From the IMG/VR virus record IMGVR_UViG_2597489870_000005: a DNA stretch of 45,486 nt. One strand, given 5' to 3'. Source of the stretch: a virus. Lineage: Duplodnaviria; Heunggongvirae; Uroviricota; Caudoviricetes. The notes beneath the pieces are model-generated. The model made no database searches. It was not told the origin of the DNA and was given only the letters and a program-made list of their open reading frames with translations. The position numbers and the translations under genes were made by a program. How positions within the stretch are numbered: position 1 is the stretch's first letter; each line of letters starts with the position of its first letter. Shown piece by piece: positions 14,792-31,170 of the stretch.

Positions 14792-14871
14792 TCAATGCGT
14801 CCCTCTGTAGGGCAGTACCACAGGAGGAATAACGGAAAATCAACTAATCGCCTCAGCACTGGCTTTTGCGA

Positions 14872-15801
14872 TCACGGCAGCCGGGGAATTTTTTTTCTGG
14901 TTATCGTAGGTGCTTCATCTGCTGCGGTAATGCTCAATTGAACCTGGATAATGTCGCTATTACCCCCATCAGGCCATTCACCTGACACCTGAACCTTCGG
15001 GAAACTGAAAGTGTATGTCCCCTCTCCATTCGAAAGCGTGAAGCTGAACGGAACTGTTTCTCCAGTCAGTGTTTTACTCCAGATTTCCCACGCGGCTTTA
15101 GACCATGAAAGCGTCACCGTACCGGACGGTGTAAAAGTAGTCGGAATATTTGCTCCTGCATAAGGCGAGCCAGTCCCGATACAACGCTGTGTCTGGAGTT
15201 TGTTATCGAACTGAATATCAAAACTGTCGATACAAAAACCGTTACCTCCGGCAACACCATTCAGGCTTACTGCTGAAACCTCCTTAAACGAATAACGTAG
15301 CTTTCCTGCACTATCCACAGGTTCGCCTTTGATAAAATTCGTATCATCGGCCTTTGATTCCCAGTCCAGTCCGGCAAAGGTTACGGTCGCTGTAATATCG
15401 CCGTCGTTAGGGATCTGCATTTTCCATGAGCCAACCTGCGCTCCTCTGACGACAGAGGCAATTCCGACATCGGACGCATAGGTCGCCAGAGAAAATGTTA
15501 TTCGCTCATTCCCCATTGTCAGAGAATCGCCTGACCATTCCGCGCCGAAACAGGATGCAAGAAAATCATCATGTTGACCCCAGCGAAATTTGGTACCAAC
15601 ATCACCGCCGACATCCACAGTGCCAGGCGTCGCCCCCTGAGCCATCCGGGAGCCACCAATCTCATTATTTTCGCCTTTATTCTGGGTGGGTTTTACTCCC
15701 CAGCTTGTGCGTTTTAATAAACTCCAGTCACCACTTGCTGGCGTAGTGCCTGCAACCGTCTCCCGGATAAATGCCGAGATAACCTTTGCACCTGAACTCA
15801 C
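14872..15801 (-). CDS. Major tail tube protein (not lambda V type)
   Basis: 309-aa ORF immediately upstream of the G/T chaperones; position-based call. Confidence 0.6.
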   Translation of the reverse strand: MSSGAKVISAFIRETVAGTTPASGDWSLLKRTSWGVKPTQNKGENNEIGGSRMAQGATPGTVDVGGDVGTKFRWGQHDDFLASCFGAEWSGDSLTMGNERITFSLATYASDVGIASVVRGAQVGSWKMQIPNDGDITATVTFAGLDWESKADDTNFIKGEPVDSAGKLRYSFKEVSAVSLNGVAGGNGFCIDSFDIQFDNKLQTQRCIGTGSPYAGANIPTTFTPSGTVTLSWSKAAWEIWSKTLTGETVPFSFTLSNGEGTYTFSFPKVQVSGEWPDGGNSDIIQVQLSITAADEAPTITRKKIPRLP

Positions 15802-18836: not shown

Positions 18837-19601
18837 TTAATCAACGATTGTGATACCGTCTTTCAATGCGTTTTGCTTACCTGCAACATCCAGTGCATCA
18901 AAAGCAGAGCGTTTCATCGTTTTCTGACCAATATCATGCTGTGTCGGACGGGAGCCGCCGCCATTGTTGCCACTGGCTTTCAGGATGTAGTCTTTCTGAG
19001 GGTAATTTTCGACAAGGAACTCCAGCGCCTCATCAAACTGCGCCAGTTCGCCAGGCTTCGCGCGGGAATAAATTTTGTTGCCGGAAGCGTCATAAGCAAC
19101 GATCCTCCCTTCTTCCACTTTGAATGCCTGTCCGAAGCGGGCTTGTAATAAATCTGCCGGGATCGCAATTTTATCGGCAATATATTTTGAACCCGCAAAA
19201 CTACCGCCAATCATAGAATCGTAAAGCTGCTTCTCCAGCATCTGAGAGCGTTGCTTTTCTTCATCTAATTGCTGCTGAAAATTTTTCGTAATTTCTGCCT
19301 TAACCTGGTCAACCTGTCCCGCATCGAGCAGCTTTTTCTGGTCGATTTTTGACAGCATTTCCAGTGCCTCGATCGCCTTCTTCGGGTCTTCGATAGCGGC
19401 AAACTTAGCCAGTTTTTCCTCTGCAGCTTCTTTAGCCAGGCGATGATTTTTTGCCTCGCCATTAAGCTCTGTAATTTTTTTTGTCGCCAGCGGTGCATCG
19501 AAGCCAATTTCTTTACCATCGTCGTGCACATAAACTGGCAGGCCAGCAGTATCAATTTCTGCGTATTGTTTTCCGTTAATCTCGACCGTTTTCAGTTTCA
19601 T
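18837..19601 (-). CDS. Scaffold-like protein (coiled-coil, Lys/Glu-rich)
   Basis: 254 aa from ATG at 19601 (MKLKTVEING...); track extension starts at a GTG inside the upstream terminator. Confidence 0.45.
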   Translation of the reverse strand: MKLKTVEINGKQYAEIDTAGLPVYVHDDGKEIGFDAPLATKKITELNGEAKNHRLAKEAAEEKLAKFAAIEDPKKAIEALEMLSKIDQKKLLDAGQVDQVKAEITKNFQQQLDEEKQRSQMLEKQLYDSMIGGSFAGSKYIADKIAIPADLLQARFGQAFKVEEGRIVAYDASGNKIYSRAKPGELAQFDEALEFLVENYPQKDYILKASGNNGGGSRPTQHDIGQKTMKRSAFDALDVAGKQNALKDGITIVD

Positions 19602-19661
19602 ATTAGTACCTGGTTTAAGTCTTCCGACAGTTACGCTGCTCACCATCCGGATCGCAGCAAT

Positions 19662-19686
19662 AAAAAAGGCCACCCGAAGGTAGCCT
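19662..19686 (-). terminator. Rho-independent terminator between head morphogenesis and scaffold genes
   Basis: Stem ggctacc/ggtggcc (one G-U) with loop uucg, then U6 on minus strand. Confidence 0.6.
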
Positions 19687-19705
19687 GTTGTAATAAATGA
19701 TTTAT

Positions 19706-20821
19706 TTAAATCCCTGCTTTTCTGAATACCTGTGCATCACGCTCACGGAGTTGCTTCAGCGTCAGCCATTCGCCTTTATCGGTGTAAAATTCATCTGGCG
19801 ACATACCGCCATCCCGAATCAGCTTTGCCCGGGTTTCCCCCACAATCTGTTTTTGTCTGGTGTAAGGCTGACGCAAAAACCATTCCCTGTAGGTTGTATC
19901 TCCGGCCACCACGCCATCCATGCTGGCCCGCTCAGCCGGGGAAATATCACGAACATCAATACCCAGTTCCTTCGCTGATTTCAGAATGAACGTTTCCGTT
20001 GAGCGGCAGCAGAAATGAATTTTTCCCGGCCCATGCAAATAAGGCACACTGTGACCTACAGGTTTATTATCCAGCGTATATTTGAGGCGATCCCTGATTC
20101 GACATTGTGGCGTAGTACGATTATCAAGCGTTGATAACCATTGCTTACCCTTAATCAAATCATTATTCGCGCTGGCAAAACTCTCACGGGCAGTAGCAGC
20201 AAGATGTCCAACCGCTGTTTTTGCAATGCTGGCCGCATTAGCCCGGCTCATCTGCAATGCACCATCCTGAAATCCCTTGCTGACATGTCCCCGAATTTTT
20301 CTTGCGATCTGCTCATTGGTATCCCCCAGCAAAAAACCCTGACGCACCGTATTTGTTATGCGTCTGAGCCGATCCGCCTCAAGATCCAAGGCCCACTCAC
20401 TGAGCAGTCGTCCCTGGAATGGTCGCGCCATTGCAGCGGCGTAAAGTGCATCAGAAGATATACCAACCAGAGGGTGAACATCAGCAACAAAATCAGGTAG
20501 CAGAGAATCAAACAGACTTAACTGATAACCAGCCTCATAAATTGCCAGCTCGTTCAGCTCTCCGGAGAGACTGGTAAACATGCTGTTAATAGCAGCGCGG
20601 TTAACCTCTCTGACACTCGCCAGAAGTGACTCCAGGCGCGTAACGGTAAAACTACCAGGATCGAGGCTGTCCAGTGCTACCAGCAGGCGAGCTGTAAGCT
20701 CCGCATCGCTGTCATTCAGTATTTTCACCATTCTGGCAGCCACACCAGTGCTATAGCGGGATATCCAGACTGCATGAGCAATTGATTCATCACGCAGCCG
20801 TTCATTCACGGTTTGCATCAT
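19706..20821 (-). CDS. Head morphogenesis protein (minor head protein)
   Basis: 371-aa ORF directly downstream of portal with overlapping start; family call from position and general resemblance. Confidence 0.5.
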   Translation of the reverse strand: MMQTVNERLRDESIAHAVWISRYSTGVAARMVKILNDSDAELTARLLVALDSLDPGSFTVTRLESLLASVREVNRAAINSMFTSLSGELNELAIYEAGYQLSLFDSLLPDFVADVHPLVGISSDALYAAAMARPFQGRLLSEWALDLEADRLRRITNTVRQGFLLGDTNEQIARKIRGHVSKGFQDGALQMSRANAASIAKTAVGHLAATARESFASANNDLIKGKQWLSTLDNRTTPQCRIRDRLKYTLDNKPVGHSVPYLHGPGKIHFCCRSTETFILKSAKELGIDVRDISPAERASMDGVVAGDTTYREWFLRQPYTRQKQIVGETRAKLIRDGGMSPDEFYTDKGEWLTLKQLRERDAQVFRKAGI

Positions 20822-22208
20822 TGATTTCCATCAACATTACACTCTGATTTTTTAATTCATCGATCACATCCTCTGGACGGGAATCCTGATCGATAAATTT
20901 CAACGCCTGCAACACCCGAACCGCATCAATCTGACGTATATCACCGCCCTGACGCAATGACTGAACAGCCAGCGCGGAGGATGAGTCAAACACCTGGGCA
21001 GATACATCCAGTTCAGTGCGCACATCCACATTGCCACCGCAACTCTCTCCGCTCCATTCCGCCATTATCTGGAGAATATTATCGAGGGCATCTTCGAGGG
21101 AGTTCGCCATTGTATAAAGCGGCGAGTGTTCCTGCATCCGCTCTTCATTAGTCTGATCAACAGATTTGGTGGATGTATTTTCAGCCCGCAGAAGTTTAGC
21201 GCCGGCATGACGCATCTGATTTTCCAGCTTCTCAAGTGATGTTTCGCCAGATTCTATCGCTGCGCCACTATGTTCAACATATTCGAGGCCATTTTTTGTT
21301 CTGTCCTCAAAAATCGTAGCCGTGGATGCACCAACCGTCAGTTCTTCATTCCTGTCCAGCCCGTAGGCCACCAGCAATGGAACGCGGGCAACATGAAGAA
21401 TATTGTCCTGCTCGCTCTGGCTTTGCCAGTGCTTGATATTCAGCAAGCCAAGATTAAGCAATGGCGGTGTACCACGCATAAACCCTGTTTTCTTCGTATA
21501 CAGTGTTACCAGAGGAATATCATCACGGCTGGTATTCCATGACTCATGAAGCATCCAGACAGATTCGCCATTAGTACCTTCGCTGCGTCGATAAATTTCT
21601 ACTCGACGGGGCATAATATGGCGGATCTGCTCCACCTTCTTCTGCCCGAAATCATCACCATCAATAATGATGACCTCTTTTATACGCAAATCAGTGAGAA
21701 CAACTTTCCCTTTTTCAACTTTCGATTTCCATCCAATAACCTGGCGTGGATTCAGCATCGTAACGTACGGGCGACCACCGGCCGCGTTTTCATCGGCTTT
21801 TGTCCGAATCTCGTTCATATCCGTTCGTGGATAGTCCACCAGCGCATGTGCCACACCATACTGAAATGCGAGACTGAAAAATTGCTGCGCCCACACATCC
21901 AGTCGGCTCCCCTCCATGTCGATATTTTCTGCATATTCCCTGATTTTTTCCGGCGTTTCCTCACTCAATACTGTCGGCTCTGCAAATATGCGCCCAATAT
22001 TTTGTTTGATGCTTTCTTCATACACAGGAAGTAACGTAGCCACAGACAGGCGTTTTTTATAAGCGTCTTCATCTTCATTAGGCCATTTGGGGAGATAATT
22101 TTCCCCCTGCCTGCGCATTTCAAGCGTACCGCCCATCAATGCGTCGTTAATATCCCACGCCTCCAGCATATCGTTATAGTCGAGGTTGGGTGTTGATATA
22201 TCAGCCAT
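20802..22208 (-). CDS. Portal protein
   Basis: 468-aa ORF immediately downstream of terminase large subunit. Confidence 0.65.
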   Translation of the reverse strand: MADISTPNLDYNDMLEAWDINDALMGGTLEMRRQGENYLPKWPNEDEDAYKKRLSVATLLPVYEESIKQNIGRIFAEPTVLSEETPEKIREYAENIDMEGSRLDVWAQQFFSLAFQYGVAHALVDYPRTDMNEIRTKADENAAGGRPYVTMLNPRQVIGWKSKVEKGKVVLTDLRIKEVIIIDGDDFGQKKVEQIRHIMPRRVEIYRRSEGTNGESVWMLHESWNTSRDDIPLVTLYTKKTGFMRGTPPLLNLGLLNIKHWQSQSEQDNILHVARVPLLVAYGLDRNEELTVGASTATIFEDRTKNGLEYVEHSGAAIESGETSLEKLENQMRHAGAKLLRAENTSTKSVDQTNEERMQEHSPLYTMANSLEDALDNILQIMAEWSGESCGGNVDVRTELDVSAQVFDSSSALAVQSLRQGGDIRQIDAVRVLQALKFIDQDSRPEDVIDELKNQSVMLMEINDANRE

Positions 22209-22210
22209 AA

Positions 22211-23521
22211 TTAAATCCGAAGTGATGTGACTCTTCCGGTCGGTTTGACAATAGGGAATTGCTTAACGATGAAATAACCTCCGGCATCATTCGGGTGATC
22301 ATTGCCAGATTTTTTATCAGGCTCCCCCTTATCATCCCAGACCTGTTGCTCCAGAGATTCGGCATATACCGGACAACGCTTCACATTAACTTTATAGCGA
22401 CGCTCACCATTGGCATTGCAGAACATTGCATTCATTGAGTTAACGCGATCTTTTACTGGCGGGTTCGAGCTGTTCACCACAACGTTAAAACCAGCCTGCT
22501 TAAGCTGGGCTATATCCGTCGTACTTGCGTTACTTGATTTTCTGGAATCCCCGGAAGCATCTGGATAAATATAAATTTCCCTCACTTTCCGGTAATCATT
22601 CCCATCATACAGCCAGAAGCGTTCTTTAATGATGCGGATCATATCCGGCGTATCGTAGGCATTGATGATTTCAGTTACCGCACATGGAAGCCCCAAACGC
22701 AGCACATGGACGATTCCCGCCATCTTTCCAACGTTAAAATCCATCCCAATATAAATCGGCTCCCCTGGCTGCTCCACTTCTTCGCAATTATTCAGTTTCC
22801 GGTCAAACTGATGGTAAACAGTACCACTTGTCAGGTTAGTAAACTGTCCTCGAAGATAGGCTTTAATCAGCTCTGGAGGGTATGATTCAAGAAGCGAAGG
22901 AATGTAATCTGCTGGCAGGTTCTTTTCATTATCGAAAGTAGATGCCTGCACCAGACCATACAGTGAGGCCAGCTCTGTTTTTTCACGCACGGCTTTAACA
23001 AACTGCTCGTAGACAAATTTGAATCCTTCCGGCGTGGTTGTAACGTCAATACCGTTGCGAAGTCCATCAATCTTATAACGCATACGTGCAATTATCTTGC
23101 GCCACGCCGTTCTGGCTTTTTCCTTCGGCAAAATGTCCAGTTCATCCACCAACGCATTACCAATTTTGAAACCGACGATCGTTTGTGGCTTCTCCATCGA
23201 TCTGCAGATAGTGGTTCCCCGATACTGGCGTCCGTAATAAAAGTGAACCTCTTTATTTCCCTCATTAATTTTTACGTTCAATCCCCAGTCAGCAGCAACT
23301 TCTTCCACTGTAGGGTAAAAAATATCGCGAATTTGGGGATACGTTGGCGCAAAATATCCCTGATTTATACCTGGATGCTCCCAAATCCCCTTGCATATGC
23401 CGCCACACCCAACCCATGTTTTGCCCGAGCCAAAACCAGCAATATAGGCTTTAAATTTATGGGGCATTGAAAGAAATCGCGCCTGAGGCACATTAAGCGT
23501 CGGAGAGATCATCTTCATCAC
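22211..23521 (-). CDS. Terminase large subunit
   Basis: 436-aa ORF with Walker A motif AGFGSGKT near N-terminus; canonical position. Confidence 0.85.
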   Translation of the reverse strand: MMKMISPTLNVPQARFLSMPHKFKAYIAGFGSGKTWVGCGGICKGIWEHPGINQGYFAPTYPQIRDIFYPTVEEVAADWGLNVKINEGNKEVHFYYGRQYRGTTICRSMEKPQTIVGFKIGNALVDELDILPKEKARTAWRKIIARMRYKIDGLRNGIDVTTTPEGFKFVYEQFVKAVREKTELASLYGLVQASTFDNEKNLPADYIPSLLESYPPELIKAYLRGQFTNLTSGTVYHQFDRKLNNCEEVEQPGEPIYIGMDFNVGKMAGIVHVLRLGLPCAVTEIINAYDTPDMIRIIKERFWLYDGNDYRKVREIYIYPDASGDSRKSSNASTTDIAQLKQAGFNVVVNSSNPPVKDRVNSMNAMFCNANGERRYKVNVKRCPVYAESLEQQVWDDKGEPDKKSGNDHPNDAGGYFIVKQFPIVKPTGRVTSLRI

Positions 23522-24587
23522 TCCTTACTCTGGCATCAACCACATTAATATTGATCGCCACAGGCTGGGGATGTTCATTATCTTCCACCGTTTCGATCTC
23601 TTTGCGCAGCTTCTGGTTTTCCATTCTGCGCCGTTCAATTTCCAGTTCCTGTAGCCGTTTATCTGCACATAAAGCCCCGCCAGCAGAAAACAAACGCAAC
23701 AATTCACGCCGGGCGGCAGCCTTATCCTCCAGCAGGATCTCAACGCCGAATTTTCCGAATTTTGCCCCTGCATATAATTGCCGCGCATCCCCATCAAGCA
23801 GAGTGGTATCAGCCATATAAAGCTGTCCCGTTCCCTCACCGCAGCACTTCGGGCAGTCCGGATTGGGTATGGCGTTATCAACAAAGCCGAGGCCTCCATA
23901 TTCCGGTTCGGGTTTGCCATCTCTGGAAGCCTGCGCCGCTGCCTTGTCGAATTCTGCTATATCGCGCCACTGGTAGAGATGATTCTCGCCCCAGCAATAA
24001 CGGCAGTTAACACGGCGAAATTGTGCAAGCTGATTGGGGTCGGCCAGGACAATAGCCATCAACTGACTCACTAGTAAATCCAGGTCTGCGGTATAGCGTT
24101 TCTGGTACTGATTGCGGAAGTAGCTGATAGCGCGAAAAACCCTGGCATTTCTAAGCATACGACTGGCGTTGCTGTTAGCTGTCGCACCTTGCCCCTCATA
24201 ACCGGCTAGTCGGTACGCCTCTGTCGGCTTTTTACCCTGAGCAACAAGCATCGCAAACTTAGCCTGCTGGTCAGAAATGCCGAATTCATCGGGACAGAAC
24301 GAAAATTCCTCCGCGTCGCCCTCATTCAGGCCCGCATCGAATACTGGCTTTTTTTCCTGAGATTTTTCGTTCCGCTTTTGTGCAGTCTGCGCAGATTTTT
24401 TCTGCGCACTTTTTTGCGCAGTTTTGCACATTTCTGTCTGCGCATTTTTCGGAGTTTTTTTGATGTAACGACGGGCTGTTGCGTAATTCAGTCCCCTTGC
24501 TTCACACCATGCCACCGGAGATATACCGGAGCGGGTGTATTCAGCAATATACTCCTGCTGCAACGCCCCCCAGTCCGGTCTGCTCAT
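23493..24587 (-). CDS. Terminase small subunit-like DNA packaging protein
   Basis: 364-aa ORF with N-terminal HTH-like segment and Cys-rich region; overlaps terminase large start. Confidence 0.5.
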   Translation of the reverse strand: MSRPDWGALQQEYIAEYTRSGISPVAWCEARGLNYATARRYIKKTPKNAQTEMCKTAQKSAQKKSAQTAQKRNEKSQEKKPVFDAGLNEGDAEEFSFCPDEFGISDQQAKFAMLVAQGKKPTEAYRLAGYEGQGATANSNASRMLRNARVFRAISYFRNQYQKRYTADLDLLVSQLMAIVLADPNQLAQFRRVNCRYCWGENHLYQWRDIAEFDKAAAQASRDGKPEPEYGGLGFVDNAIPNPDCPKCCGEGTGQLYMADTTLLDGDARQLYAGAKFGKFGVEILLEDKAAARRELLRLFSAGGALCADKRLQELEIERRRMENQKLRKEIETVEDNEHPQPVAININVVDARVRSDEDDLSDA

Positions 24588-24590
24588 CAG

Positions 24591-24842
24591 TTAGTCCTGA
24601 TTTTTATCCACCCTGAGTAGTTCGCGCAGAGCAAAGGCATCCCCTTTTCTGGCAAGCTTAAACAATGCCGCTCGTAACTCGGCTTCACCTTTCGCTCTGC
24701 CCTTACGGATGGCCGCATAAAAATCTGTCATTGCTTCCCGATTTTCTTTCAGTCGGTTCAGATCAACATCCAGAACGTCAGCGATTTGTTGTGCAGTCAT
24801 CCGGCACGCTGCCAGAGACTCGACTTTCGAATACGGAATCAT
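24591..24842 (-). CDS. Small putative DNA-binding protein upstream of terminase
   Basis: 83-aa ORF (possible start at MTAQQIADVL); translationally coupled to terminase small gene. Confidence 0.4.
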   Translation of the reverse strand: MIPYSKVESLAACRMTAQQIADVLDVDLNRLKENREAMTDFYAAIRKGRAKGEAELRAALFKLARKGDAFALRELLRVDKNQD

Positions 24843-25710
24843 TTGTCACCCCCATTGATATGCAGGGTGTCTTCTTCCTGTATTTTTCGTGAAGGATTTT
24901 TACTGCAGCGTTGTTCCAGGTGACCTGATGGTGAATGCGTTTATGGCTGGCACCCATCAGTGAGATTTTTACGCACGACGGCGCATACATGACGGAGTAA
25001 AAACTTTTAACGTAGGTTCCGGAATCCAGATACAGCTCGGTCATTCCGCCGCTGTTTTTCTGCGTCTGTTTCTGCCCTAACTGGACAGCACCGATCGTCA
25101 TAAACAATTCACCACAGCGACCGAGATTCGTGTACGTATTCACATCCTCGTTAATGCGCCCCATGAATGAGAACGGTCGATCAACCGAACAGATAAAGCT
25201 GTTCATTGCCTTGCGTTTCACCCACGAAGCATGGCCGCCATTGTCACCAAGAAAATCCCCGCCCTGCGACATAGCGATGGAAAGAGCAGGTATTGATTCG
25301 TAGTACGCCAGCATTTCAGAAAGGATCGCATCCAGTTTCCTTATCGGAAAATAGGCCTGGTCATAGTTGCGATCCACCCGAAACTGGAACTCGTGATAAT
25401 CATCATCGAGCTGAATGAAGTATTTACACCCGACCAGTTTTGCCAGGTCGAAACAGGCATTACGGGCGTAAAAAATTGAGCGGCGGTCACAGAAATTATC
25501 GGCTTCGTCAAAACGACTGGCGATATCGGCTTTGGAAAACACCAGCACCTGTTCACCAAATTCAGCCATGTACTGATGCCGTGTCTTATCTTCATCATCA
25601 ACAACGATAAAAATTTTCCCGGTATAGCCAGCACGACGCAACGTCCGGTAAGTCAGAACTTTGTCCGGTCGCCCGTGAGTCAGAATAAAGGCGCAAAAAT
25701 CATCACGCAT
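24778..25710 (-). CDS. Uncharacterised 310-aa protein with DxD-like motif (possible nucleotide-sugar transferase fold)
   Basis: Start MRDDFCAFILTHGRPDKV at 25710 overlapping ParB-like stop; motifs IFIVVDDED and IQLDDDYHEF; fold assignment is inference from motifs only. Confidence 0.5.
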   Translation of the reverse strand: MRDDFCAFILTHGRPDKVLTYRTLRRAGYTGKIFIVVDDEDKTRHQYMAEFGEQVLVFSKADIASRFDEADNFCDRRSIFYARNACFDLAKLVGCKYFIQLDDDYHEFQFRVDRNYDQAYFPIRKLDAILSEMLAYYESIPALSIAMSQGGDFLGDNGGHASWVKRKAMNSFICSVDRPFSFMGRINEDVNTYTNLGRCGELFMTIGAVQLGQKQTQKNSGGMTELYLDSGTYVKSFYSVMYAPSCVKISLMGASHKRIHHQVTWNNAAVKILHEKYRKKTPCISMGVTNDSVFESRVSGSVPDDCTTNR

Positions 25711-26494
25711 ATTCCTCCTCCTCACCACCATGCATGATCTCCACCATGCGCTGCGTCATCCGGACAAATCCATTTTCAATAGCCTGCTGATAATCAATGA
25801 TCACCAGCGCCGACTCCTCGAAAAAACACTGAATTTCAGAGGGGGCGTGAGCGTAATAGTCCGCAATTCTGCTGAAATTAAACACCGTGTGACGTTCTGC
25901 CGCACACAGGAGGAATTTCTCAATATCAGGCTCAAGGGACGCCGAACGTATCCGGCTGATCAGCTCCTGAGTTTTCGTATCGTCGTACAGTTCACTGATA
26001 TCCGGTTTACCGCCCGACGGCTCATAAACAGGCGTATCAATTTTCGTCGTATACGGCTCCTCCTCATTTCCTGTACCGGGCAAAACATCCGTCAACAGTT
26101 CATCAATTTCTGTCGGGATGAAGCCTGTCAGGGAGACATCAAAATCAGCATTGATTAGGTCCGACAGCTCCATCCGCAACAGATCTTCATCCCAGCCAGC
26201 ATTCATCGGCAGGCGATTATCTGCCAGGCGGTACGCCTTTTTCTGCTCATCCGTCAGGCCAGACAGAACAATGACCGGAACAGAATCCATTTTGAGCATT
26301 TCAGCCGCCATAACACGACCGTGACCCGCAATAATTTCGCCCTTTTCGTCAATCAGCACCGGATTAGTCCAGCCGAATTGCTTAATACTTTCTACCAGTT
26401 GTGCCACCTGCTCAGTACTGTGCGTCCTGGCGTTGTGCGCATACGGTGACAATTCTTGTAATGGGCGATAGACTATCTTTAATTTCTCGCTCAT
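25703..26494 (-). CDS. ParB/Srx-like nuclease domain protein
   Basis: 263-aa ORF with ParB N-terminal domain signature (…IIAGHGRVMAA…) and acidic C-terminus. Confidence 0.7.
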   Translation of the reverse strand: MSEKLKIVYRPLQELSPYAHNARTHSTEQVAQLVESIKQFGWTNPVLIDEKGEIIAGHGRVMAAEMLKMDSVPVIVLSGLTDEQKKAYRLADNRLPMNAGWDEDLLRMELSDLINADFDVSLTGFIPTEIDELLTDVLPGTGNEEEPYTTKIDTPVYEPSGGKPDISELYDDTKTQELISRIRSASLEPDIEKFLLCAAERHTVFNFSRIADYYAHAPSEIQCFFEESALVIIDYQQAIENGFVRMTQRMVEIMHGGEEEEYA

Positions 26495-26509
26495 ACAGCC
26501 TTGCTTTAT

Positions 26510-26545
26510 GAATAAAACGCACCCCAGCAGCCAGTGCTACTGGGG
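26510..26545 (-). terminator. Stem-loop with U-tract downstream of trkG
   Basis: Stem ccccag/ctgggg (26522-26527 / 26540-26545) followed on minus strand by ugcguuuuauu; 16 nt before ParB-like start. Confidence 0.5.
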
Positions 26546-26631
26546 ACGGAGGTGTTGCTGGTAAAGTTAGGTATTGGATCAATGAGTGAGTCAACATAAT
26601 ATTAAACTCACAATTATAAATCAGCCATATA

Positions 26632-28089
26632 TTAGGAGCGCCAAAAAAAACCTGAAAACAATATAATAACAGGATAAATTTCAAGGCGACCAAGAATCAT
26701 AGCTATGCACATTAAACATTTTGCAATGTCATTAAGCACTCCGAATGACGATGCAGTAGCCCCAAAACCTAATCCCATATTATTAATACATGCAGCCACT
26801 GTTGCAAATGATGTAAGAAAATCATATCCCATACCATTTAACACCAGTATAAAAAACACCGTGAAGAGAGTATAAAGAAAAAAGAAACTCCATACAGACC
26901 TCATTACACGATCTGTAACTATCTTCCCTCCTACATTTACACTCAACAACGCTCTGGGATGAGAAAGCTGATTTATCTCGTGTTTGCTTTGTTTGAAAAG
27001 TATAAGAAATCGAAGTGACTTAATTCCACCACAAGTTGAACCTATACATCCCCCAAAGAAACTTGACAACAGCAAAAACACTATCGTGTGCGTGGGCCAA
27101 CTTGCATAATCCTGCGTAGCTAAACCATTATCAGTGAGCATGGAGCTGGCAAGAAAAAACGAATGAATAAAACTTCCATGCAAGTCATACATACCTATAT
27201 GCCAGACCTGGAAAGAGGTAACAATGATCACCCCTAAGGCTATTAACAGAAAGAAACGAAGTTCAATATCTCTGATTAAAGGTTTTATCGTTTTCCTGCT
27301 AATAACAATATACCAAAGAGTGAAGTTGAAAGCCGATAGCAGGGAAAAAGAACCAGCCACCAGCTCAACCAAATAGTTATTAAAATATCCGATACTCTCG
27401 CTATGAGTTGAGAAACCACCAAGCGAAACTGTGGAAATCCCGTGACAAATAGCATCAAACAAAGGCATTCCTGCAAGTCTATAACAGACAATACAAGCAA
27501 TACCTAATAAAGAATAAGTTATCCACAGTGTCCGTGACGTATCGGCCAGGCGGGGAGTGAGTTTGTCATCCTTAAATGGCCCCGGCATTTCTGACTGATA
27601 AAGCTTTGCACCACCAATACCCAATAATGGCAATACAGCAACCGCCAGAACAATAACTCCTAAACCACCTATAAAATTTAACTGTGACCGATAGTACAAA
27701 TATGCCCGAGGTAATGAACTAACATCATCAATTACAGTTGCTCCTGTTGTTGTTATTCCAGAAACCCCTTCAAACAGAGCATCAATGAACGTTAAATTAA
27801 GTTCTGAGTCAATCCATAAAGGGAATGCACTAATAACAGAAAACAAAATCCAAAACATTACAATTATAATAAACCCATCACGGGTACGTAATTGAATGCC
27901 AGATTTCTTAGTTGTATACCACGCTCCGCCACCAATGCAAAAAAATATAACGAAAGTTATAAAGAAAACGAACAGGCTTTTTTCTTTATAAAACAATGCT
28001 ACAACCATTGGTGGCAACATTGAAAGACTATAGAGCCAAACCAGGAACCCACACATATGAGTAACAACTCTTACATGAGATGTATTCAT
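26632..28089 (-). CDS. trkG: TrkH/TrkG-family potassium uptake protein
   Basis: 485 aa from MNTSHVRVVTHMCGF...; polytopic membrane protein matching recalled E. coli TrkG (Rac prophage cargo); AT-rich. Confidence 0.9.
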   Translation of the reverse strand: MNTSHVRVVTHMCGFLVWLYSLSMLPPMVVALFYKEKSLFVFFITFVIFFCIGGGAWYTTKKSGIQLRTRDGFIIIVMFWILFSVISAFPLWIDSELNLTFIDALFEGVSGITTTGATVIDDVSSLPRAYLYYRSQLNFIGGLGVIVLAVAVLPLLGIGGAKLYQSEMPGPFKDDKLTPRLADTSRTLWITYSLLGIACIVCYRLAGMPLFDAICHGISTVSLGGFSTHSESIGYFNNYLVELVAGSFSLLSAFNFTLWYIVISRKTIKPLIRDIELRFFLLIALGVIIVTSFQVWHIGMYDLHGSFIHSFFLASSMLTDNGLATQDYASWPTHTIVFLLLSSFFGGCIGSTCGGIKSLRFLILFKQSKHEINQLSHPRALLSVNVGGKIVTDRVMRSVWSFFFLYTLFTVFFILVLNGMGYDFLTSFATVAACINNMGLGFGATASSFGVLNDIAKCLMCIAMILGRLEIYPVIILFSGFFWRS

Positions 28090-28226
28090 ATCTAAATATT
28101 CTTTCAATTATAACCACCTTGCTGCAATATTATGATTATACTGTATAAAATTTAACTCCTCTTAGATCTTACTTCACTGTTCCTTATGAAACAATCATCA
28201 AAATGAATCATATTGTAGTTAAGATT

Positions 28227-28703
28227 TTACTTTAAACACTGCTCGGTTATGTATTGCTGAGCACCTTCAAGTTGGGCCTGCATCATTACCAGTCGTTCCC
28301 GGAGGGTGAAATAATCCCGTTCAGCGGTGTCTGCCAGTCGGGGGGAGGCTGCATTATCCACGCCGGAGGCGGTGGTGGCTTCACGCACTGACTGACAGAC
28401 TGCTTTGATGTGCAACCGACGACGACCAGCGGCAACATCATCACGCAGAACATCATTTTCAGCTTTCGCATCAGCTAACTCCTTCGTGTATTTTGCATCG
28501 AGCGCAGCAACATCACGCTGACGCATCTGCATGTCAGTAATTGCCGCGTTCGCCAGCTTCAGTTCTCTGGCATTTTTGTCGCGCTGTTCTTTGTAGGCGA
28601 TTGCGTTATCACGGTAATGATTAACAGCCCATGACAGGCAGACGATGATGCAGATAACCAGAGCGGAGATAATCGCGGTTACTCTGCTCATTGTTTCCCC
28701 CAC
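28227..28703 (-). CDS. Rz: Spanin inner-membrane subunit Rz
   Basis: 158-aa ORF matching recalled lambda Rz ([31 protein letters not shown]...). Confidence 0.85.
28286..28471 (-). CDS. Rz1: Spanin outer-membrane lipoprotein Rz1 (embedded in Rz, +1 frame)
   Basis: 61-aa ORF inside Rz with lipobox VVVGC and proline-rich tail as lambda Rz1. Confidence 0.75.
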
Positions 28704-29185
28704 AAACAGATTTCACGCTCAATCTCACGACGAGTCATGAGACCTTTCCATTGCTTACCGCCAGCATATGTCCAGCGACGTAGCTGATCACATGCGCCTT
28801 TGATATCGCCCTGGTTTATTTTGCGAAGAAGCGTCGATGTTCTGAAATTGCCAGCACCCACGTTGTAAACGAATGAGTAAAGAGCGCCGCACGTTGTTTC
28901 CGGTATATCGACTTCGATGTACGGGTTAATTTGTCTGGCGACAGTGGCAAGGTCTTTATTCAAGAGTGCTTTGCATTCTGCTTTGGTATACGTTTTACCG
29001 AGCAAGATGTCTTTTCCTGTATGCCCGTGACATACAGTCCATACACCAACAATATCTTTGTATGGTATGTAGCTGACACCTTCCAGACCATCGTTACCAC
29101 TTGGGCCAGTGATTAACACTGATGCTATAGCAATTGCTCCGCCACCAATAGCAGCAGCAACGGCTTTTCGTAATGATGGAGGCAT
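28688..29185 (-). CDS. R: SAR endolysin (phage 21 R-type lysozyme)
   Basis: 165-aa ORF with Gly/Ala-rich N-terminal SAR segment, matching recalled phage 21 R. Confidence 0.85.
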
Positions 29186-29400
29186 TATTCACCTCTCGCA
29201 GCCTTGCGCTTATCTTCTTTAATCTTGAAATAAAGGTTTGTCAGGTACGTCAGCAGGCCAAATACCAGGCTACCCAGCACACCTATTGCTGCCCACTGTG
29301 AGGGCGTGACTTTATCGAGCAGCTGTAAAAACCAGTACCCGGCACTACCTGCTGAGGTGCCATAGGCGACACCCGTTGTTAACTTATCCATGGATTTCAT
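29185..29400 (-). CDS. S: Pinholin (phage 21 S-type holin)
   Basis: 71-aa [27 protein letters not shown]... matching recalled S21; two TM segments and charged C-terminus. Confidence 0.85.
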
Positions 29401-29510
29401 AACCCCACCTCGCAGACAAAGCGGGTGTAAATTGAGGGAATACTACGAAACGTAACAGACTCGGAGTCAGTGAATAACTCAGGTATTGGGTTATCAGCTA
29501 ATATCGAGAC

Positions 29511-29545
29511 TCAAAAAATGGAAAAACCCGCTCGACGGCGGGTTT
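29511..29545 (-). terminator. Rho-independent terminator upstream of holin gene on late strand
   Basis: Perfect 8-bp stem aaacccgc/gcgggttt with loop tcgacg, then U-tract on minus strand. Confidence 0.65.
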
Positions 29546-29972
29546 AAGCTGTGTGACGAAGTAACCACTCTTAACAGCATAACCAATTTTTTACGTACGT
29601 AAACCACTAAATGATATTTGCGAGAATGCTACCGAGTATTGAAAACACCACTACAAATACATAAGCAAATCTCAACAAATAACCAACAAATAATTTCCAG
29701 TGTTATTTTTAGCCGGTTTAAATTGAACCTTCAAATTATAGAGCACTTATAAATAACAGCCGTTAATATAAATTGGCTAATAGATTTATTTTTATTCAGC
29801 CAAGAGCCATGAATAGGATTCGATAGAAAAAAGTTCAGATAAAAATAGAGATCTACTTCACAAATCAAACGAGAAACCAAAACTTACATCTTGAAATAAT
29901 CACATTGATTAGATGAATATTTATCGCGCAGTGACATCATTTTTTAATAATAGTTCAAAAAAAGGGCTCACG

Positions 29973-31070
29973 ATGAAAAAATTAACAGTGGCAATTTCTG
30001 CTGTAGCTGCATCAGTACTGATGGCGATGTCTGCTCAGGCAGCTGAAATTTATAATAAAGACAGTAACAAGCTGGATCTGTACGGGAAAGTTAATGCTAA
30101 GCACTACTTCTCCTCTAATGATGCAGATGATGGTGATACTACTTATGCCCGTCTTGGCTTCAAAGGTGAAACCCAAATCAACGATCAACTGACTGGTTTC
30201 GGTCAGTGGGAATATGAATTCAAAGGCAACCGCGCTGAATCTCAAGGTTCCTCCAAAGATAAAACCCGTCTTGCCTTCGCTGGCCTGAAATTCGGTGACT
30301 ACGGCTCCATCGATTACGGCCGTAACTACGGTGTAGCATACGACATCGGTGCGTGGACTGACGTCCTGCCAGAATTCGGTGGTGACACTTGGACTCAAAC
30401 CGACGTGTTCATGACTCAACGTGCAACTGGTGTTGCAACCTATCGTAACAACGACTTCTTTGGTCTGGTTGATGGTCTGAACTTTGCTGCTCAGTACCAA
30501 GGCAAAAACGATCGTAGCGATTTCGATAACTACACTGAAGGTAACGGTGATGGCTTCGGTTTCTCTGCTACCTATGAATACGAAGGATTCGGTATCGGTG
30601 CAACTTATGCGAAATCTGATCGTACCGACACTCAAGTTAATGCAGGGAAAGTTCTTCCTGAAGTATTTGCTTCCGGTAAAAATGCAGAAGTTTGGGCCGC
30701 AGGTCTGAAATATGACGCTAACAACATTTACCTGGCCACTACCTATTCTGAAACCCAGAATATGACTGTATTTGCTGATCACTTCGTTGCTAATAAAGCC
30801 CAAAACTTCGAAGCTGTTGCACAATATCAGTTCGATTTCGGTCTGCGTCCGTCCGTTGCTTACCTGCAATCTAAAGGTAAGGATCTTGGAGTATGGGGCG
30901 ATCAGGACTTAGTCAAATATGTTGATGTAGGTGCAACCTATTACTTCAACAAAAATATGTCTACTTTCGTTGATTACAAAATCAACCTGCTTGACAAAAA
31001 TGACTTCACTAAAGCACTCGGTGTAAGCACTGATGACATCGTTGCTGTAGGTCTGGTTTACCAGTTCTAA
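29973..31070 (+). CDS. nmpC: Outer-membrane porin NmpC/OmpD-like, intact
   Basis: 365 aa from [23 protein letters not shown] signal peptide; porin C-terminus ...VGLVYQF; lies between Q and holin as in DLP12. Confidence 0.85.
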
Positions 31071-31086
31071 TCTGATTACGAAAAAG

Positions 31087-31168
31087 ATATGTTGCGGGAG
31101 GCGTTGCCTCCCCAACATATAAGTGGCTCCCTCAAGCCACTTCCTTTAGAAGCACAACCTTGCTTCTA
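31087..31168. terminator. Cluster of three hairpins between convergent porin and Q genes (bidirectional terminator; tR'-like on minus strand)
   Basis: Hairpin A 31087-31120 (core gggaggc/gcctccc, minus-strand U-tract), hairpin B 31121-31142 (aagtggct/agccactt), hairpin C 31147-31168 (tagaagca/tgcttcta). Confidence 0.6.
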
Positions 31169-31170
31169 AC

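What the first reader, a model, noticed from the sequence alone, without database searches (positions are those of the whole stretch)
26510..28226. trkG-like K+ transporter as insulated cargo between Rz and the packaging operon
A 485-aa TrkH/TrkG-family transporter lies in markedly AT-rich DNA with a 120-bp AT-rich upstream region and a downstream hairpin with U-tract. It interrupts the late operon between lysis and packaging genes, the position trkG holds in the K-12 Rac prophage. This element therefore carries both Rac-type and DLP12-type cargo on a lambda-int backbone.
Basis: partly seen in the sequence, partly recalled or inferred. Interest (0 to 1): 0.4.

Follow-up and report, generated by a model that had tools for sequence, protein, structure and literature searches.

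The report
Known trkG gene in hybrid prophage
This stretch is the well-known prophage-borne potassium transporter gene trkG of E. coli, identical in protein to the K-12 copy and in its usual place after the phage lysis genes, so it is real but ordinary.

Summary
A 485-aa TrkH-family gene lies on the minus strand at 26632-28089. Its GC is 38% against about 48-49% in the flanks, and it holds the most AT-rich gene-sized stretch of the window. A 137-bp upstream spacer has 25.5% GC, and a strong hairpin lies downstream. The gene is not merely trkG-like. Its protein is 100% identical to E. coli K-12 TrkG, and the block from the Rz 3' part through trkG to the ParB 5' part differs from K-12 Rac at 5 of about 2,380 bases. 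The window is a prophage of ETEC H10407 at the lambda attachment site. It is a three-way mosaic: lambda int/xis and early genes, a DLP12-type Q-nmpC-S-R-Rz 5' segment, and a Rac-type segment from the Rz 3' end through trkG, packaging, head and tail. So trkG arrived with about 20 kb of Rac-type late module, not as separate cargo. "Insulated" is only half right. No terminator separates Rz from trkG. The downstream hairpin also occurs in trkG-less relatives, so it belongs to the ParB/packaging leader. Published K-12 work gives the function (Na+-dependent K+ uptake, own promoter, partial H-NS repression). The cassette occurs in 1,551 of 5,426 complete E. coli genomes; the nmpC+trkG combination occurs in 34. 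It is already known and of low interest.

The parts
26632..28089 (-). trkG coding sequence as annotated (485 aa, ATG start), a TrkH-family K+ transporter subunit
   Evidence: ORF list. Pfam TrkH at 5e-145. 100% aa identity to K-12 TrkG b1363. RefSeq annotates it as trkG, WP_001097895.1. Full-length alignment to solved TrkH structures 4J9U and 3PJZ at E = 1e-120.
28090..28107 (-). Possible 6-codon N-terminal extension from TTG 28107 (491-aa form, MKEYLD-MNTSH...)
   Evidence: AAGGTGG lies 6 nt upstream of the TTG, and there is no Shine-Dalgarno sequence before ATG 28089. The same SD+TTG layout occurs in E. fergusonii and Pectobacterium homologues. Many homologues are 491 aa. The PHROG 1916 profile is 491 long and is matched 1-491. 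This is an inference and is not proven.
28090..28226 (-). AT-rich (25.5% GC) spacer between the Rz stop and trkG, with candidate -10 boxes: TATAAT ending at 28135, TATAAT ending at 28107, TATGAT ending at 28207
   Evidence: Composition. Hexamer scans. No -35 box is good. 100% identical to K-12.
28090..28600 (-). Counterpart of the K-12 fragment that drove a luciferase reporter (the trkG promoter fragment of Tanudjaja et al.)
   Evidence: [quoted passage not shown] Within 28090-28600 the window differs from K-12 at 2 bases (28533, 28450), both inside Rz; a third Rz SNP (28602) lies 2 bases outside the fragment.
28227..28302 (-). Rac-type 3' end of Rz: the mosaic joint with the DLP12/434/21-type lysis cassette
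   Evidence: DLP12, phage 434 and phage 21 are near-identical down to about 28302, then diverge markedly over the last 75 nt of Rz and are unrelated beyond it. K-12 Rac is identical through this stretch.
28227..28703 (-). Rz (i-spanin) with embedded Rz1 (28286-28471), the last lysis gene upstream of trkG
   Evidence: Pfam Phage_lysis at 4e-53. ORF list. RefSeq annotation rzpD.
26586..26611 (-). Small AT-rich hairpin just after the trkG stop, with no U-tract
   Evidence: Folding gives -8.1 kcal/mol, z = -1.8. It lies in the part with no counterpart in trkG-less relatives.
26512..26545 (-). Strong hairpin (26545-26522) plus TGCGTTTTAT, 28 nt upstream of the ParB-like start codon
   Evidence: Terminator-like scan. 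-22.5 kcal/mol, z = -3.4. Homologous hairpin plus T-run in trkG-less prophages of strains AQ15 and A30.
26495..26570 (-). Leader of the ParB/packaging module shared with trkG-less relatives. It marks the downstream edge of the trkG-specific DNA at about 26545-26570.
   Evidence: Megablast homology of AQ15 and A30 ends at window 26544. The alignment shows similarity fading by about 26570.
25703..26494 (-). ParB/Srx-like gene, the full-length form of K-12 ynaK and the first gene after trkG
   Evidence: Pfam ParB_N. phrog_620 at 1e-90. K-12 ynaK equals its first ~254 nt, with the breakpoint at window ~26241.

Best explanation
This is trkG, the prophage-borne second pore subunit of the E. coli Trk potassium-uptake system. 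It is carried as a lysogenic-conversion ('moron'-type) gene in the slot between the lysis cassette and the packaging genes of a Rac-type late region.

Shown here:
- The protein is identical to K-12 TrkG.
- Both flanking spacers are identical to those of K-12 Rac.
- The DNA is compositionally foreign.
- The gene is absent from otherwise related prophages.
- The gene survives when the rest of Rac decays.

Taken from the literature on the identical K-12 protein and a near-identical promoter fragment (2 SNPs in 511 bp, both inside Rz):
- TrkG works with the host's TrkA to take up K+ in a Na+-dependent way, and also lets Na+ in.
- In K-12 it is transcribed from the DNA just upstream of it, where the late promoter no longer exists.
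- H-NS and StpA dampen its expression but do not silence it.

Inferred:
- In this prophage, trkG is expressed in the lysogen from the AT-rich spacer.
- It is probably also read through by Q-antiterminated late transcription, because nothing terminator-like separates it from Rz.
- The hairpin after it belongs to the ParB/packaging leader and may stop lysogenic trkG transcripts from entering the packaging genes.
- The gene reached this lambda-int prophage by recombination that joined a DLP12-like Q-nmpC-lysis segment, inside Rz, to a whole Rac-type late module.
For: Identity and family:
- 485/485 aa identical to K-12 b1363.
- 5 SNPs over window 26241-28622 against K-12 Rac, 2 of them synonymous in trkG and none in the spacers.
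- Pfam TrkH at 5e-145.
- TIGR00933 TrkH-family subfamily scores 415 bits against a cut-off of 331. The TrkH equivalog NF008020 scores 450 against 866, so it is a paralogue rather than TrkH.
- Full-length match to solved TrkH structures.
- D327 and G322 are readable in the translation.

Foreign composition:
- 38.1% GC against about 48-49%; lowest in the window.

Presence/absence and context:
- Prophages of strains AQ15 and A30 have the same ParB, glycosyltransferase and terminase module directly after other lysis genes, with no trkG.
- A full-length Rac phage, vB_EcoS-683R6, and a full-length Rac at ttcA have the same S-R-Rz-trkG-ParB order.
- Window about 6165-26500 (packaging, head and most tail genes) is 98% identical to full-length Rac.

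Spread and retention:
- 1,551 of 5,426 complete E. coli genomes carry the cassette, 1,516 records at 99% identity or more.
- Only 943 genomes keep 80% or more of the 998-base probe that spans the whole ParB gene, its leader and the trkG 3' end.
- A roughly 9-kb Rac stump keeps trkG intact.

Function and regulation:
- PMC9898762 and the promoter-fragment mapping.
- PMC5700373 lists trkG among the best-conserved Rac genes.
Against: - No transcription or transport data exist for this strain.
- Promoter activity was measured on a 511-bp K-12 fragment that includes 374 bp of Rz, so the promoter need not lie in the 137-bp spacer.
- Consensus scans find no convincing -35/-10 pair. The region gave 6 promoter-like hits against 8.1 expected by chance.
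- The hairpin's U-tract is poor, so whether it terminates anything is untested.
- RefSeq marks two genes of this prophage as frameshifted, so late-operon read-through may never happen in this particular copy.
Confidence: 0.9

Rival explanations
1. trkG is mainly a phage late gene. It is co-transcribed with the lysis and packaging genes and serves the lytic cycle, for example by keeping up cell K+ and membrane potential late in infection, or by tuning when the holin fires. Any benefit to the lysogen would be secondary.
For: - trkG is co-oriented with the late operon.
- No terminator-like site lies on the coding strand between S (29400) and trkG.
- A tR'-like terminator lies upstream of S at 29545-29524, so trkG is inside the Q-dependent unit.
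- trkG is kept in apparently complete Rac-type phages.
- A phage protein family holds it: PHROG 1916.
Against: - trkG is kept intact in hundreds of genomes where the lysis and packaging genes around it are truncated or gone, including K-12 and a ~9-kb stump.
- Close relatives of the packaging module do without it.
- In K-12 it is expressed at levels similar to trkH without any late promoter (PMC9898762).
Confidence: 0.06
2. trkG is a silenced, functionally irrelevant passenger. It would be AT-rich foreign DNA shut down by H-NS and kept only because it is young and hitch-hikes with the prophage.
For: - The 25-38% GC is typical of H-NS targets.
- H-NS and StpA repress it in K-12.
- The near-clonal sequence (99% or more in 1,516 of 1,555 records) fits recent spread.
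Against: - Repression is partial, and TrkG can substitute for TrkH in K-12.
- The two differences from K-12 inside the gene are both synonymous.
- trkG outlasts its neighbours during prophage decay.
- PMC5700373 finds it among the most conserved Rac genes.
Confidence: 0.04

Closest known systems
trkG (b1363) of the cryptic Rac prophage of E. coli K-12
   Same: - Identical protein.
- Identical upstream and downstream spacers.
- Same neighbours: Rz/Rz1 upstream and ParB-like ynaK downstream.
- Same low GC, 38%, as reported for K-12.
   Different: - Here the neighbours are whole. K-12 rzpR is cut at window ~28622, and ynaK at ~26241 where it is fused towards ydaY.
- The carrier prophage has lambda int/xis and sits beside ybhC, not at ttcA with intR.
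Full-length Rac-type prophages and phages (e.g. vB_EcoS-683R6, ON470595; strain 7.1994/NIST0056)
   Same: - Same order: S, R, Rz, trkG, ParB, glycosyltransferase-like gene, TerS, TerL, head, ydaY, tail.
- 98-99% DNA identity.
   Different: - Those have Rac early genes (racR, recET, kilR, intR) and tRNA genes between Q and S.
- This one has lambda-type early genes (exo, bet, gam, cIII, cII, P, ren, nin) and nmpC between Q and S.
DLP12 / phage 434 / phage 21 Q-nmpC-S-R-Rz-bor segment
   Same: - rusA, ylcG, quuD, nmpC, essD, rrrD and the 5' part of Rz are about 99% identical by eye to DLP12; the whole S-to-Rz alignment, divergent end included, has a mean column identity of 97%.
- NmpC is 346/346 identical.
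   Different: - After window ~28302 those elements continue with a different Rz end, then bor and lambda-type cos/Nu1 packaging genes, not trkG.
- K-12 and 434B nmpC are split by IS5. Here nmpC is intact.
TrkH of E. coli and Vibrio parahaemolyticus (PDB 3PJZ, 4J9U)
   Same: Same fold family and length, with an end-to-end alignment at E = 1e-120. Pfam PF02386 and TIGR00933 are both matched.
   Different: - It falls far below the TrkH equivalog cut-off, 450 against 866 bits.
- K+ uptake is Na+-dependent and the protein also passes Na+, according to PMC9898762.
Chromosomal TrkG-clade genes of other Enterobacterales (E. fergusonii 79%, Citrobacter 77%, Pectobacterium 75%, Buttiauxella 68%, Morganella 62%)
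   Same: Same paralogue clade, and the same SD+TTG start layout where checked.
   Different: - The two contexts read, E. fergusonii and Pectobacterium, are non-phage.
- Their GC is 40-54%, against 38% here.
- None is close enough to be the donor.

Membership tests
TrkH/TrkG family (Pfam PF02386; NCBIfam TIGR00933) | Full-length match to the family profile above the curated cut-off | tested here: met
   PF02386 scores 484 bits against a cut-off of 27, over residues 40-483. TIGR00933 scores 415 bits against 331.
TrkH/TrkG family (Pfam PF02386; NCBIfam TIGR00933) | Architecture of solved TrkH: four pore-loop repeats aligned end to end, with pore-loop glycines kept | tested here: met
   Residues 7-485 align to 4-485 of 4J9U/3PJZ TrkH at E = 1e-120, including the TTTGAT, GIGG, GGFSTH, TDNG and NNMGLG segments. 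G322 and D327 are present.
TrkH/TrkG family (Pfam PF02386; NCBIfam TIGR00933) | K+ uptake that depends on TrkA (and SapD/TrkE) | not testable with these tools
   Rests on published work with the identical K-12 protein (PMC9898762). The partners are host genes outside the window.
TrkG orthologue of E. coli K-12 (b1363) | Sequence identity and conserved flanks | tested here: met
   485/485 aa identical. 5 SNPs in about 2,380 bp including both spacers. Same Rz and ynaK neighbours.
TrkH orthologue (NCBIfam equivalog NF008020) | Score above the equivalog cut-off | tested here: not met
   449.7 bits against a cut-off of 866. It is a paralogue, not TrkH.
Phage moron / lysogenic-conversion gene | Base composition unlike the surrounding phage genes | tested here: met
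   38.1% GC (GC3 32%) against about 48-49% in the flanks. It is the lowest-GC stretch in the window.
Phage moron / lysogenic-conversion gene | Present in some and absent from other closely related phage genomes at the same slot | tested here: met
   The AQ15 and A30 prophages have the same ParB/terminase module at 92-94% identity, directly after lysis genes and without trkG.
Phage moron / lysogenic-conversion gene | Own promoter, active in the lysogen | not testable with these tools
   Only weak consensus matches were found. A K-12 fragment equal to window 28090-28600 (2 SNPs) drove a reporter in PMC9898762. That is inference by identity.
Phage moron / lysogenic-conversion gene | Own terminator brought in with the gene | tested here: not met
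   The only strong hairpin (26545-26522) lies in DNA shared with trkG-less relatives, which have a homologous hairpin plus T-run there. The trkG-specific hairpin 26586-26611 is weak and has no U-tract.
Rac prophage | intR integrase, integration at ttcA, Rac early region (racR, recET) | tested here: not met
   int/xis is 98.7% lambda. The prophage abuts ybhC and has lambda-type early genes. Only the late region is Rac-type.

The most novel reading that the evidence does not exclude
trkG may be a dual-use gene. It sits inside the Q-dependent late transcription unit with nothing terminator-like between it and the lysis genes. So it may be strongly induced late in infection and help the phage, for instance by holding K+ and membrane potential and thereby setting holin timing. 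This would add to its weak, H-NS-dampened expression in the lysogen.
Probability: 0.08. Interest if true: 0.45.

Novelty: already known. Interest (0 to 1): 0.12.

Why it matters
It matters little beyond bookkeeping.

The window shows an undecayed version of the DNA around K-12 trkG. Rz and the ParB-like gene are whole, followed by a nearly complete packaging, head and tail region in which RefSeq marks only the tail tube gene as frameshifted. This explains the K-12 stumps rzpR, ynaK and ydaY as deletion products.

It also shows that trkG can move between prophage backbones by recombination of whole late modules. That puts trkG and an intact NmpC porin in one lambda-int prophage, a combination seen in 34 of 5,426 complete genomes.

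Two small points may be useful to annotators:
- The trkG start codon is probably the TTG six codons upstream of the annotated ATG.
- The 'terminator' after trkG belongs to the packaging module, not to trkG.

Tried and rejected
- Looked for a donor of the AT-rich gene. The closest non-Escherichia relatives (E. fergusonii 79%, Citrobacter 77%, Pectobacterium 75%, Buttiauxella 68%, Morganella 62%) are too distant. Where read, they are chromosomal with GC of 40-54%. No donor was identified.
- Tried to fix the upstream edge of the insert by aligning the trkG upstream spacer with those of E. fergusonii and Pectobacterium. Similarity is confined to the last ~25-70 nt (SD, TTG, a TATAAT), which is too little to define an edge. 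The downstream flanks are unrelated.
- Looked for a known RNA in 25500-31500 with Rfam at E up to 1. Nothing was found.
- The upstream spacer has no unusual RNA structure, z = -0.8.
- Looked for a convincing sigma-70 promoter. Only 9-of-12 matches turned up, no more than chance.
- Tried to read Schlösser et al. 1991 (PMC207911) for mapped promoter and terminator. The paper is not held.
- Two genomes whose trkG lay at unusual chromosomal coordinates were checked for a different integration site. Both were Rac at ttcA in differently numbered chromosomes.
- A chance ORF was rejected because of the family score and the identity to K-12. A native chromosomal gene was rejected because of the phage genes on both sides.

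Full report
**What is there.** The finding covers a minus-strand ORF at 26632-28089 (485 aa from ATG 28089; an in-frame TTG at 28107 would give 491 aa).
- It matches Pfam TrkH (PF02386) at E = 5e-145 over residues 40-483.
- It matches the NCBIfam TrkH-family subfamily model above its cut-off. It scores far below the TrkH equivalog cut-off (450 against 866 bits), so it is a paralogue of TrkH.
- It aligns end to end with the solved TrkH structures 3PJZ and 4J9U.

**Neighbours, all on the minus strand**:
- Upstream: holin S (29185-29400), lysozyme R (28688-29185) and Rz/Rz1 (28227-28703).
- Downstream: a ParB/Srx-like gene (25703-26494), a TET-associated-glycosyltransferase-like gene (24778-25731), TerS (23493-24587) and TerL (22211-23521).

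**Is the composition claim real?** Yes.
- trkG has 38.1% GC (GC3 32%).
- The upstream spacer 28090-28226 has 25.5% GC.
- The 5 kb to the left has 48.1% GC and the S-R-Rz block has 49.1%.
- The lowest-GC 1,458-bp stretch of the whole window lies inside trkG.

**Downstream hairpin.** It is real: minus strand 26545-26522, 10 pairs, -22.5 kcal/mol, z = -3.4. Its U-tract is poor (UGCGUUUUAU).

**What it is.**
- The window is 100% identical to a prophage of ETEC H10407, where RefSeq annotates this gene as trkG.
- The protein is 485/485 identical to K-12 TrkG.
- Over window 26241-28622 the DNA differs from K-12 Rac at five positions. Three are in Rz, two are synonymous changes in trkG, and none is in either spacer.
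- K-12 homology stops at about 28622 and about 26241. These are the deletion joints that made the K-12 stumps rzpR and ynaK, the latter fused towards ydaY.
- Here Rz and the ParB-like gene are whole. ydaY sits about 12 kb away among the tail genes.

**The carrier element.**
- A full-length Rac phage record (vB_EcoS-683R6) and a full-length Rac at ttcA have the same S-R-Rz-trkG-ParB-glycosyltransferase-TerS-TerL order.
- Window about 6165-26500 is 98% identical to that Rac phage.
- int/xis are 98.7% identical to lambda, the prophage abuts ybhC, and the early genes are lambda-type.
- rusA-ylcG-quuD-nmpC-essD-rrrD and the 5' part of Rz are about 99% identical by eye to DLP12, within an alignment whose overall mean column identity is 97%. 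NmpC is intact and 346/346 identical to the K-12 fragment.
- The DLP12/434/21-type sequence runs down to about window 28302. After that, the last 75 nt of Rz are of the Rac type.
- So this is a lambda/DLP12/Rac chimera, and trkG came with the whole Rac-type late module.
- nmpC and trkG are contiguous in only 34 of 5,426 complete E. coli genomes. The trkG cassette is in 1,551 genomes, with 1,516 records at 99% identity or more.

**Is it cargo, and is it insulated?**
- Two prophages (strains AQ15 and A30) have the same ParB, glycosyltransferase and terminase module at 92-94% identity, directly after different lysis genes and with no trkG. The gene is therefore dispensable cargo in a variable slot.
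- Their homology to the window runs from ParB upstream to 26544 by megablast and fades by about 26570 in the alignment. That stretch contains the hairpin.
- In those relatives the same position holds a diverged hairpin followed by a longer T-run. The hairpin is thus part of the ParB/packaging leader and was not imported with trkG.
- On the upstream side, no terminator-like site lies on the coding strand between S and trkG. A tR'-like terminator lies upstream of S at 29545-29524. trkG therefore sits inside the Q-dependent late unit.
- 'Insulated' is at best half right.

**How it most likely works.**
- *From the literature on the identical K-12 protein* (PMC9898762):
  - TrkG mediates Na+-dependent K+ uptake and also Na+ uptake.
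  - Residue D327 is implicated, and it is present here.
  - TrkG can replace TrkH.
  - Its transcript level is similar to that of trkH.
  - H-NS and StpA repress it only partly.
- *Promoter fragment:* the reporter fragment, defined by primers in the paper's supplement, corresponds to window 28090-28600. It differs from the window at 2 bases, both inside Rz.
- *Inference:* the lysogen expresses trkG from this region, most likely from the AT-rich spacer, where perfect TATAAT boxes end at 28135 and 28107. No good -35 box exists, and the consensus scan found no more hits than chance.
- *Also inferred:* late transcription reads through trkG on induction. RefSeq marks the tail tube and replication O genes of this copy as frameshifted, so this prophage may be defective.

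**Retention.** trkG outlasts its neighbours.
- Only 943 genomes keep 80% or more of the 998-base probe that spans the whole ParB gene, its leader and the trkG 3' end, against 1,551 with trkG.
- A roughly 9-kb Rac stump with IS3 in Rz still has the identical TrkG.
- An earlier survey also found trkG among the best-conserved Rac genes (PMC5700373).

**Origin.**
- TrkG-clade proteins occur patchily in Enterobacterales at 61-79% identity.
- The E. fergusonii and Pectobacterium copies are in non-phage chromosomal settings.
- GC of the homologues is 40-54%.
- No plausible direct donor was found.

**Verdict.** The feature is already known: trkG of Rac, in a published genome. The only mildly new points are the rare chimeric carrier, the backbone origin of the hairpin and the probable TTG start. 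Interest is low.

Noticed in passing
window 28090-28107 (minus strand): The annotated ATG start of trkG (28089) has no Shine-Dalgarno sequence. An in-frame TTG at 28107 has AAGGTGG 6 nt upstream and would give 491 aa. E. fergusonii (GGAGG...TTG) and Pectobacterium (GGGAG...TTG) homologues share this layout, many homologues are 491 aa, and PHROG 1916 is 491 long. The K-12 annotation of 485 aa may be six residues short.
   Followed up: partly
window 24778-26494 (minus strand): The ParB/Srx-like gene overlaps a gene matching the TET-associated glycosyltransferase family (PF20691) and phrog_842 'beta-glucosyl-HMC-alpha-glucosyltransferase'. Both lie just ahead of the terminase genes. They could be a DNA-modification pair. 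K-12 ynaK is the stump of the ParB-like gene.
   Followed up: no
window 29973-31070 (plus strand) and 29524-29545 (minus strand): An intact NmpC porin, 346/346 identical to the IS5-split K-12 gene, lies on the opposite strand between the Q gene and a tR'-like terminator upstream of S. Unlike trkG, it is outside the late transcription unit.
   Followed up: partly
window about 28302 (inside Rz): A mosaic joint. DLP12, 434 and 21-type lysis cassettes are near-identical down to this point. After it, the last 75 nt of Rz are of a different (Rac) type. Megablast matches of DLP12-type elements in the sampled E. coli genomes mostly break at exactly this base.
   Followed up: yes
window about 14840-15801 and 34975-35807: RefSeq marks the tail tube gene and the replication protein O gene of this prophage as frameshifted, and a DUF1364 gene as truncated. 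The prophage is probably not viable as it stands (coordinates converted from L001 by adding 5599).
   Followed up: no
L003 5790-6200 and L004 5790-6530 (trkG-less prophages of strains AQ15 and A30): In place of trkG these relatives carry one to three small ORFs of 44-60 aa and an extra hairpin (CAGCAGCCCTTC..GAGGGGCTGC) between the lysis genes and the ParB leader. The slot takes varied small cargo.
   Followed up: no
L032 (E. coli 23CRST025, NZ_AP045787.1) 19600-28000: A Rac remnant of about 9 kb at ttcA keeps an intact, identical trkG. Meanwhile Rz is split by IS3, recE is truncated and the ParB-like gene is reduced to fragments.
   Followed up: partly
public records outside the window: The trkG cassette also appears at 15 places on E. 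coli plasmid records. It also appears at 99.5% identity in a record named Salmonella phage SPF_0923, and at 100% and 93% protein identity in E. ruysiae and E. albertii.
   Followed up: no
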